64,000 bases of DNA from Eledone cirrhosa. Taxonomy: Eukaryota. Below the pieces are notes generated by a model. The model saw only the letters and a list, made by a program, of their open reading frames with translations, had not been told where the DNA came from and did no database searches. Position numbers and translations under genes: made by a program. Position 1 is the first letter of the stretch; the number at the start of each line of letters is the position of its first letter. Below, one piece after another: positions 11,670 to 24,083 of the stretch. Location: assembly GCA_964016885.1 (NCBI GenBank), contig OZ024743.1:152396001-152460000 (forward strand), in the 5' to 3' direction.

Positions 11670-11847
11670 AACTTAATACAATTCTCAATCGGTATTTTAA
11701 TTTCTTGTGTTATCAACACATTGACGTATAAACTCACATACATGTTTGCATATATATATATATGCAAACATGTATGTGAGTTTATACGTCAATGTATGTG
11801 AGTTTAACACAAGAAATTAAAATACCGATTGAGAATTGTATTAAGTT
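11670..11847. repeat. Nested palindrome/inverted repeat centred on a (TA)n tract
   Basis: Outer arms 11670-11712 and 11805-11847; inner perfect palindrome 11718-11795. Confidence 0.85.
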
Positions 11848-14406: not shown

Positions 14407-14642
14407 TCCCCACCACCACCCCACTCTCAAGAGCGTGAAACTAATAAACCTTTGTTCGTACTGCCTCTCTGTTTTGTTCCCGTTCCATTTTTCACTATAT
14501 AACCAAAGATTAATATGGTTCGTTGATTACTCAACGAATACAGTTTTACAATAGATTAGAAGGACTCAAAAGAAAAGTTTTCCTGGAGTTTTTAATATTA
14601 TTCAAAATGTTAACAAATGAAAAATATTCGCATAATCAAAAT

Positions 14643-14715
14643 ATATACTTTATTATATATATTTCAAAGGTACTGTGCTGTTTTTTTCAGTACGTCCTCA
14701 TCAGACAAAATATAT
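14643..14715 (-). ncRNA. Type I hammerhead ribozyme (mirror copy)
   Basis: Reverse complement of the 14817-14889 motif. Confidence 0.75.
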
Positions 14716-14816
14716 GATTTGATATATGACATACCGCTACGGTCTTGATTATTCAATCCCCTGCCAATACGGGGATTGAATAATCAAGACCGTAGCGGTA
14801 TGTCATATATCAAATC

Positions 14817-14889
14817 ATATATTTTGTCTGATGAGGACGTACTGAAAAAAACAGCACAGTACCTTTGAAATATATATAATAAAGTATAT
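14817..14889 (+). ncRNA. Type I hammerhead ribozyme
   Basis: Stem I AUAUAUUUUGU/AUAAAGUAUAU; CUGAUGA at 14828; stem II GGAcGUACUG/CAGUACcUUU; GAAA; palindromic stem III AUAUAUAU; AUA cleavage triplet. Confidence 0.75.
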
Positions 14890-15050
14890 ATTTTGATTAT
14901 GCGAATACTTTTCATTTGTTAACATTTTGAATAATATATATATATATTTATATTATATACATATATATATATACACATACATATGTATATATATATATAT
15001 ATTTATATATACATATGTATATATGTTGTGTTTTATATATATATATATAT

Positions 15051-16817: not shown

Positions 16818-17137
16818 ATCACTTTTTCAATTTACTGAGAAATTCGTATGTTTACATGCTTACGTATTAGATGTATATTTATATTCACATTGGGGCAATA
16901 TCGGTTACACCCTCAGTATGTATAGATAAAACTTTATCATACACCTTGGCTGCTAGTGAACTTCTTAATATACAATATATATATATATGTGTGTGTGGTG
17001 TGTGTGTGTGTGTGTGTGGATAGATATGTATATATATATATATATATATATGTAGGAGGTGAGTTTTATTGTAGTACAATAAAGCAATGCAGATATCGGA
17101 TAAGAAGCACTCTACAGTTTGTAGGACTGGAGTATAC

Positions 17138-17416
17138 ATAATATAAGATCAAAAGATGGTTAAAGGAGTTCCATGTATTTTATTATGCGCATTTCAAAAA
17201 CAAACATCATCATGCAATAATATTTGTGTTTTCATCAGATAAAACATGTTGATTTAAAACTGCACTATCCACAAGTGTTTTTTAGCCTTCATATCATGTT
17301 CTCCTGTTTTATCATGTGTTTTCATCATGAAAACACAAATATTATTGCATGATGATGTTTGTTTTTGAAATGCGCATAATAAAATACATGGAACTCCTTT
17401 AACCATCTTTTGATCT

Positions 17417-17424
<8 letters not shown>
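17138..17424. mobile_element. Head-to-head inverted pair of an HHR cassette
   Basis: Arms 17138-17235 and 17327-17424; the right arm is truncated inside CUGAUGA and runs into (TA)n. Confidence 0.8.
17172..17248 (-). ncRNA. Type I hammerhead ribozyme
   Basis: CAUG-UUUUAU-CUGAUGA-long stem II (ACAAAUAUUAUU/GAUGAUGUUUGU)-GAAA-UGCGCA-UA-AUAAAA-ua-CAUG. Confidence 0.8.
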
Positions 17425-22910: not shown

Positions 22911-22949
<39 letters not shown>

Positions 22950-23051
22950 AAGACAAACATAGAATATTCGAAAATATTCTGTATGTTTATAATAAACATT
23001 TCGAAGACCCAATCGCTATAGAATAGAATACGTCACGTATTACAATTTGAG

Positions 23052-23140
23052 ATTCTCGATAAAAGCAAGGGAAGTAACCTACGCGTTTCATTCTTATTAG
23101 AAATCATCAGGATTACATATCCAGTGCTTTTATCGAGAAT
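23052..23140 (-). ncRNA. Type I hammerhead ribozyme (mirror copy)
   Basis: Reverse complement of 23362-23450. Confidence 0.8.
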
Positions 23141-23361
23141 GACACAGCTAGAGACTTATAGAATACTTAGCTGTGTACAGGAACTGATTTGAAAGAGCGG
23201 TTGCCGGTCCGGCAGAAATTAGAATTTGGATATAATGCTCTGAAATAGCGATATATATGTGAAGCATTATATCCAAATTCTAATTTCTGCCGGACCGGCA
23301 ACCGCTCTTTCAAATCAGTTCCTGTACACAGCTAAGTATTCTATAAGTCTCTAGCTGTGTC

Positions 23362-23450
23362 ATTCTCGATAAAAGCACTGGATATGTAATCCTGATGATT
23401 TCTAATAAGAATGAAACGCGTAGGTTACTTCCCTTGCTTTTATCGAGAAT
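23362..23450 (+). ncRNA. Type I hammerhead ribozyme with extended stem I
   Basis: GUAAUC-CUGAUGA(23392)-uUUCU-aaua-AGAAu-GAAA-CGCG-UA-GGUUAC, closed by a distal 16-bp helix AUUCUCGAUAAAAGCA/UGCUUUUAUCGAGAAU. Confidence 0.8.
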
Positions 23451-23585
23451 CTCAAATTGTAATACGTGACGTATTCTATTCTATAGCGATTGGGTCTTCG
23501 AAATGTTTATTATAAACATACAGAATATTTTCGAATATTCTATGTTTGTCTTCACATATATATCGCTATTTCAGAGCATTATATC

Positions 23586-23656
<71 letters not shown>

Positions 23657-23695
23657 GATATTAATAAATGGAAACTATATTTATAAAACCATATT

Positions 23696-23760
23696 TATTT
23701 CATTATACATATTTCAGGGATACCAAATTAAATTATGGTATGCCTTCATCAGACAAAATA
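23696..23760 (-). ncRNA. Type I hammerhead ribozyme (mirror copy)
   Basis: Reverse complement of 23834-23898. Confidence 0.8.
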
Positions 23761-23833
23761 CAATATATAACAGTTTTACAAATAAGCTTTGAAGTACCCT
23801 ATTAAAATGCAACCATAAAACTGTTATATATTG

Positions 23834-23898
23834 TATTTTGTCTGATGAAGGCATACCATAATTTAATTTGGTATCCCTGAAATATGTATAATGAAATA
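23834..23898 (+). ncRNA. Type I hammerhead ribozyme
   Basis: UAUUUUGU-CUGAUGA(23842)-AGGcAUACCA…UGGUAUcCCU-GAAA-UAUGUA-UA-AUGAAAUA; related to the 14817 motif. Confidence 0.8.
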
Positions 23899-24026
23899 AA
23901 TATGGTTTTATAAATATAGTTTCCATTTATTAATATCGTATATCTACGCCAAATACTTGTCGAGCGCTTTATATCAGTTATAAAAATATTTACTTGTTGT
24001 ATCCCAACAATTTTAAATAGAACTTT

Positions 24027-24083
<57 letters not shown>

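What the first reader, a model, noticed from the sequence alone, without database searches (positions are those of the whole stretch)
23651..24030. Second mirror pair, related to the 14.8-kb family, with structure-preserving changes
It shares TATTTTGTCTGATGA…GAAATAT.TATAAT with the 14828 motif, but stem II differs (AGGcAUACCA/UGGUAUcCCU versus GGAcGUACUG/CAGUACcUUU). Pairing and the C-C mismatch at the fourth position are both kept. This covariation argues for selection on ribozyme structure. The pair shares one (TA)n tract with the 312-nt pair, which suggests repeated targeting of the same microsatellite.
Basis: seen in the sequence. Interest (0 to 1): 0.7.

Follow-up and report, generated by a model that had tools for sequence, protein, structure and literature searches.

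The report
Head-to-head Penelope retrotransposon stump with hammerheads
The mirror-image sequence and its two hammerhead-ribozyme motifs are real and match the cut-short ends of a very abundant Penelope-like jumping gene, joined head to head inside a TA repeat; this is likely an ordinary insertion of a known class, though its two ends hint at how such inversions form.

Summary
Observation confirmed: exact 128-bp arms (23651-23778, 23816-23943), each carrying a type-I minimal hammerhead, with the stem II changes described. The 37-nt 'loop' is the left copy running further in antisense; the right copy has an extra 86-nt tail. The motif family has 39,328 exact matches in the genome. Long copies lead into a ~4.3-kb element encoding RT plus a C-terminal GIY-YIG-type endonuclease with the Hydra-clade Penelope motifs of Craig et al. 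2021. This is the known 'inverted 5'-truncated copy plus one-sided tail' insertion in (TA)n. Stem II covaries across subfamilies (7 of 9 pairs; 6 tree-level compensatory events vs 1.4 expected, p about 0.014), but that reflects selection on source elements, not on this locus, whose read-through RNA is predicted to form a long hairpin. Two mechanistic hints: 27 of 28 head-to-head pairs join one short end to one tailed end, and one insertion carries private A-to-G changes in both arms, suggesting a single sense RNA primed twice. The scan found this architecture before on other DNA, including this genome.

The parts
23589..23655 (.). (TA)n target tract, left flank; also the right flank of the unrelated 312-nt element
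23651..23816 (-). Left arm: 5'-truncated antisense copy of the element's 3' end (pLTR), starting at short end 'site A'; includes the apparent loop 23779-23815
23691..23766 (-). Hammerhead motif of the left arm (exact mirror of 23828-23903)
23816..23816 (.). Inversion junction, 1-nt overlap; junction 30-mer occurs once in the genome
23816..24029 (+). Right arm: 5'-truncated sense copy ending at tailed end 'site B'
23828..23903 (+). Type-I minimal hammerhead: stem I 23834-41/23891-98 (outer 23828-32/23899-903), CUGAUGA 23842-48, stem II 23849-58/23869-78 with C-C mismatch, GAAA 23879-82, self-complementary AUAUGUAU stem III 23882-89, predicted cut after A23890
   Evidence: cleavage not tested
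23939..23943 (+). Site A: internal TATAT where short-ended copies join (AT)n
   Evidence: 2,146 exact junctions; reads with (AT)n loose ends at 23943
23944..24029 (+). 86-nt tail, on this arm only; in read-through copies it continues ATATAT.. and reaches the ORF start 50 nt later
24030..24080 (.). (AT)n target tract, right flank
14497..14935 (.). Sister-family insertion (14.8 kb), same build with the tail on the left arm; bounds approximate

Best explanation
This is an insertion of two 5'-truncated copies of the 3' end (pLTR with hammerhead motif) of an abundant Hydra-clade Penelope-like retrotransposon, joined head to head in a (TA)n tract, likely made by priming reverse transcription from both target strands. 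Shown: family size, fixed ends, link to an RT-endonuclease ORF, stem II covariation. Inferred: the endonuclease nicks both strands of the self-complementary (TA)n; one strand primes at internal site A and the other at site B, 86 nt further 3', both at short ATAT matches to the target; the two cDNAs stop early and are joined at a short overlap. Inferred: the ribozyme is selected in full-length source elements, where it probably cleaves as a dimer or with protein help, while this stump is probably inert because a transcript through it would fold into a 128-bp hairpin.
For: Family: 39,328 motif hits. Architecture: 28 of 30 top loci are head-to-head pairs (the query favoured such loci, and one is the window itself). 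Unbiased by that query, exact ends on C1 to 193 Mb give 27 A+B, 1 A+A and 0 B+B head-to-head pairs. ORF link: long copies run from the same arm through about 2 kb of 3'UTR into RT (YRDD), CNCRNKSNC linker and C-terminal endonuclease. Direct-tandem pLTR-ORF-pLTR copies repeat at 4.2-4.3 kb. 1,316 protein homologues at E<=0.001. Motifs match the Hydra description and Hydra-1_Obim rows by eye. Literature layout. Two RT start sites delimit the tail, and both strands are cut and extended in vitro. Arms differ at 45 of 2,990 aligned positions and share subfamily and private variants. Folding: -192.7 kcal/mol for the 375-nt foldback vs -11.5 for the monomer motif.
Against: No intact ORF among 16 of 16 read-through copies (longest 510 aa), so current activity is not shown. 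Pfam found nothing in four ORF pieces and Rfam no hammerhead in the focused scan. Clade assignment rests on motifs, with no tree against reference PLEs. The unit (4.2-4.3 kb) is longer than described Hydra elements (<3 kb) and the tail (86 nt) longer than the usual 30-40 bp. No read spans this locus's junction. Junction overlaps are BLAST-edge estimates without a null: 15 of 27 are 1-4 nt. The monomer fold is not better than shuffles (z -0.78).
Confidence: 0.9

Rival explanations
1. The palindrome is itself a selected, self-propagating non-coding unit (retrozyme- or MITE-like) with a working ribozyme on each strand.
For: Intact cores on both arms; one other junction recurs at three unlinked loci, and L010 and L030 share another.
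Against: This junction is unique in the genome; junction points and arm lengths vary widely; the sequence is contiguous with a coding element; the foldback is predicted to bury both motifs.
Confidence: 0.04
2. Same element, but the inversion arises by self-priming on an antisense template (proposed in PMC3846280) or by foldback of one cDNA, with arm identity kept by gene conversion.
For: Published hypothesis for head-to-head Penelope copies. Some loci have spacerless palindromic centres (L005, L024). Foldback copying would also make the arms share variants.
Against: In L026 both arms carry A>G in element-sense polarity (12 of 13 and 9 of 10 rare substitutions), private to that locus, which points to a sense RNA template. 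Either arm can be the longer or the tailed one. This rests on one locus.
Confidence: 0.25
3. The mirror image is an assembly or library foldback artefact.
For: The arms are 100% identical here and no listed read or contig bridges the junction.
Against: The same two fixed ends recur thousands of times; the site A-(AT)n join is in raw reads of two other DNA runs (5,481 and 6,166 reads); arms at other loci differ by about 1.5%; the asymmetric tail rule is not expected of a chimera.
Confidence: 0.03

Closest known systems
Hydra clade of C-terminal-endonuclease Penelope-like elements, incl. Hydra-1_Obim (Craig et al. 2021, PMC8557442; passages, section 11 and supplement rows seen)
   Same: RT then C-terminal endonuclease; RW(K/R), DKT, CxCx5C linker, CxxC and CxH around E and N; canonical-core hammerhead near the 3' end; (TA)n target; inverted 5'-truncated copy noted for Penelope-13_HM.
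   Different: A different family from Hydra-1_Obim (other hammerhead sequence). Unit 4.2-4.3 kb with about 2 kb 3'UTR rather than <3 kb; clear pLTR tandems (Obim row: 'no pLTR'); 86-nt tail; RWR instead of RWK.
Insertion layout of endonuclease-bearing PLEs: inverted pLTR plus one-sided tail (PMC3846280 and PMC8557442, passages seen)
   Same: Head-to-head truncated copies, tail at one end, AT-rich target.
   Different: Here the one-short, one-tailed pairing is counted (27 of 28); target-site duplication cannot be read inside (TA)n.
Minimal type-I hammerheads of metazoan PLEs (Cervera and de la Pena 2014, PMC4209133; parts 1-2 of 4 read)
   Same: Intact core, long helix II, short palindromic helix III suited to dimers, many divergent subfamilies with compensatory changes, dual motifs 100-700 bp apart on opposite strands.
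   Different: Pair 10.1-11.1 is mostly A-U or G-U (G-C in 3 of 100); near-invariant C-C mismatch in helix II; longer helix I.
Poseidon_Ac in vitro mechanism (Frangieh et al. 2024, PMC11167929; parts 1-2 of 4 read)
   Same: Two internal RT start sites bound the tail; both target strands are cut and extended; AT-rich target.
   Different: There the start sites are not homologous to the cut DNA and lie inside the ORF; here both ends carry 5-6 nt that match (TA)n and lie upstream of the ATG.

Membership tests
Penelope-like elements (EN+) | Single ORF with PLE-type RT and GIY-YIG endonuclease | tested here: met
   Long copies: FIQLDI, GLYRDD, NFLDV, then VVY..YVG, R..NH, E, N; homologues. Pfam gave no hit; all copies seen are disrupted.
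Penelope-like elements (EN+) | pLTRs in direct tandem and inverted form, tail on one end | tested here: met
   L119, L120, L126, L201, L204, L207, L210-212, L214, L216
Penelope-like elements (EN+) | Hammerhead motif in the pLTR | tested here: met
   Core and stems present, covariation; no Rfam hammerhead hit
Hydra clade | RWK and DKT motifs, no GxKF/Y | tested here: met
   IRWRAF, SDKTNNLY, no N-terminal GxKF/Y, read; RWR variant
Hydra clade | CxCx5C linker; CCHH absent; CxxC and CxH around E and N | tested here: met
   CNCRNKSNC; one Cys between VVY and YVG; CDLC..E..N..CCRH, by inspection
Hydra clade | Insertion into (TA)n | tested here: met
   27 of 30 loci
Hydra clade | Generally shorter than 3 kb (a tendency in the paper, not a diagnostic motif) | tested here: not met
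   Repeat unit 4.2-4.3 kb
Hydra clade | RT phylogeny within the clade | not tested
   No tree with reference PLEs was built
Neptune / Nematis | CX2-5CxxC linker and CCHH motif | tested here: not met
   Linker is CxCx5C; CCHH cysteines absent
Active hammerhead ribozyme | Self-cleavage | not testable with these tools
   Needs an assay; stem I pair probabilities only 0.2-0.3 in the monomer
Non-coding retrozymes | Short non-coding tandem units, no own ORF (definition recalled) | tested here: not met
   The unit is the end of a coding element

The most novel reading that the evidence does not exclude
These stumps record the Penelope inversion mechanism in vivo: one sense RNA is primed twice, once from each strand of a nicked (TA)n tract, at two fixed ATAT-bearing sites, so every head-to-head insertion has one short and one tailed end; a host-edited (A-to-I) RNA copied into both arms proves the single sense template and argues against antisense self-priming.
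Probability: 0.5. Interest if true: 0.5.

Novelty: new member of a known kind. Interest (0 to 1): 0.25.

Why it matters
The locus itself is one of thousands and likely inert. The family is useful as a dataset: about 39,000 motif copies in many subfamilies give a natural covariation series for a Penelope hammerhead with an unusual fixed C-C mismatch. The short-end/tailed-end rule and edited copies make the open question of how Penelope inversions and tails form testable from genomes alone.

Tried and rejected
Rfam over the window was swamped by microsatellite matches (150 of 242 rows shown, no hammerhead among them); the focused scan gave 2 weak non-hammerhead hits. The repeat finder was swamped by the (TA)n array. 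Pfam: nothing on four ORF pieces, one sub-threshold RVT_1 hit among five homologues. First long copy tried (L031) held no ORF of the family. My first clade guess, Neptune/Nematis, was dropped. No RNA holder listed. Reads did not bridge this junction (reduced-representation runs and short contigs). No intact ORF among 16 read-through copies. Hyper-editing scan: only the two arms of L026 flagged among 140 pLTR copies, none among 54 3'UTR, 51 ORF and 40 sister-family pieces, so editing is rare. Stem I and III conservation was not used as evidence because the search pattern fixed most of those bases. An ORF contiguous with the 14.8-kb subfamily was not found; a 40-62% identical ORF lies in L058 but is not contiguous with its motif. 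Paper searches listed no description of this family or of the end-pairing rule; the library lacks most subscription papers and Repbase, so absence from print is not established.

Full report
Observation. On the + strand the motif is a type-I minimal hammerhead: stem I, core 23842-48, a 10-position stem II with a C-C mismatch, GAAA, a self-complementary AUAUGUAU stem III and A23890 as predicted cut site. Compared with the 14828 copy, four stem II pairs change on both sides, two become G-U and C-C stays (sequence). The two units are 136 of 195 aligned bases identical. Rfam gave no hammerhead hit.

Family. A pattern fixing only the core and flanks has 19,878 + 19,450 exact hits in the 3.0-Gb genome and 0 for the reversed control. 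Two raw DNA runs with the same species label lay 27,447 and 29,417 reads on the element. The host is probably an octopod; this is an inference from the microsatellites and the two named protein hits from Argonauta hians.

Anatomy. Thirty loci fetched with the right arm show one build: (TA)n, an antisense copy starting at a fixed point (site A), a variable junction, a sense copy ending 86 nt further 3' (site B), (TA)n. 28 of 30 are head-to-head pairs (the query favoured them and one is the window). The window's 'loop' is upstream element sequence in antisense. Exact joins to (AT)n number 2,146 for site A and 1,357 for site B, and 16 copies read through B. This locus's junction is unique; another junction occurs three times.

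Parent element. Long copies run through about 2 kb of AT-rich 3'UTR into an ORF. Read-through copies place the ATG 50 nt after site B and repeat the pLTR at 4.2-4.3 kb; none of the 16 is intact, the longest reading 510 aa. The protein has 1,316 homologues among 7,996 scored candidates and no Pfam hit. Its motifs (IRWRAF, SDKT, GLYRDD, CNCRNKSNC, no CCHH, CDLC..E..N..CCRH) match the published definition of the Hydra clade and the Hydra-1_Obim rows by eye. Hydra elements are listed as (TA)n-targeting with hammerheads, and one Octopus family is already named, with a different ribozyme sequence. No tree was built. An earlier scan note prompted the Hydra check.

Covariation. I used the first 100 listed hits, in which stem II is unconstrained except for length. 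Tip counts: paired in 81-97 of 100 at nine positions, C-C in 95 of 100; a one-base bulge was fitted in 19 of 100. On an unfitted MAFFT alignment of 80 distinct segments plus the two window copies, 7 of 9 stem II pairs have two-sided changes; 133 cells vs 51.7+/-5.8 shuffled (0 of 500) and 5-27 slid. The two measures counting pairs or types did not exceed shuffles (481 and 488 of 500), and cells are inflated by relatedness. On a tree from flanks only (94 sequences), 6 same-branch compensatory changes fall on true pairs vs 0-2 for slid and mean 1.4 for permuted partners, p about 0.014 (short flanks, noisy tree, not R-scape). Selection on stem II is therefore moderately supported, at the level of source subfamilies, as already described for PLE hammerheads. 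At this locus a through-transcript folds as a long hairpin (-192.7 kcal/mol) that would bury both motifs (-11.5 alone).

Mechanism. Using the 100 listed A ends and the 64 listed B ends on C1 up to 193.3 Mb, head-to-head pairs within 6.5 kb are 27 A+B, 1 A+A, 0 B+B. Independent choice would give about 48% A+B (hand arithmetic). One possible B+B pair lies beyond that range in the list, and L105 is A+A. Either arm can be the long one or the tailed one. Both ends carry 5-6 nt matching (TA)n in the element's own sequence. Arms differ at 45 of 2,990 positions and share variants. In L026, A>G in sense polarity makes up 12 of 13 and 9 of 10 rare substitutions on the two arms, nine of them shared, and a 30-mer with these changes occurs only in those two arms. 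That fits an A-to-I edited sense RNA copied into both arms (inference, one locus among 140 pLTR copies). Together with in vitro cutting and extension of both strands and two start sites bounding the tail, the best model is two-strand priming on one RNA. Foldback of one cDNA, or antisense self-priming, remain rivals.

Shared microsatellite. The 312-nt element (22947-23588) shows no blastn similarity to this one and is a separate insertion. Site B is followed by (AT)5 in 27 of 30 loci. Independent neighbours of this family within 1.5 kb occur in 2 of 30 loci (one pair) vs about 1.2 expected, so no hotspot beyond the general preference was shown.

Verdict. A real, ordinary stump of a new family of a known clade. 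The inverted copy plus tail layout and opposite-strand hammerhead pairs are in print, and the scan noted the same on other DNA. Papers were seen as follows: PMC11167929 and PMC4209133 parts 1-2 of 4; PMC8557442 passages, section 11, supplement part 2 and search rows; PMC3846280 passages; others as listings only.

Noticed in passing
window 22947-23588: The 312-nt pair is two circularly permuted copies of one unit with its own minimal hammerhead (core 23392 and mirror 23110, palindromic ACGCGU stem III). Three reads return from 23258 to 22947, suggesting tandem copies elsewhere. Possibly a non-coding retrozyme-like repeat.
   Followed up: partly
L026 (G000:C6, about 1329190-1329560): Insertion with clustered A>G changes in both arms, private to the locus; likely an edited RNA that was retrotransposed.
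   Followed up: yes
window about 17060-17420: A third foldback with another minimal hammerhead (core at 17238, minus strand, palindromic AUGCGCAU stem III); the second arm's core is broken.
   Followed up: no
window 14377 and 16774: Further CUGANGA-hairpin-GAAA motifs on the + strand, perhaps other PLE ends.
   Followed up: no
L011, L013, L014; L010 and L030: Identical inversion junctions at unlinked loci: recurrent break points or occasional re-mobilisation of a whole palindrome.
   Followed up: partly
L216 about 1010-1115: In read-through copies a 10-nt segment of the tail is the reverse complement of a segment just before the ATG, so site B lies inside a predicted stem-loop.
   Followed up: partly
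L119, L120, L201 ORFs: Asparagine-rich stretch between RT thumb and linker, reminiscent of N-rich inserts reported in rotifer Penelopes.
   Followed up: no
window 11716-11797: Near-perfect 82-nt palindrome centred on (AT)n; only sub-threshold miRNA matches.
   Followed up: no
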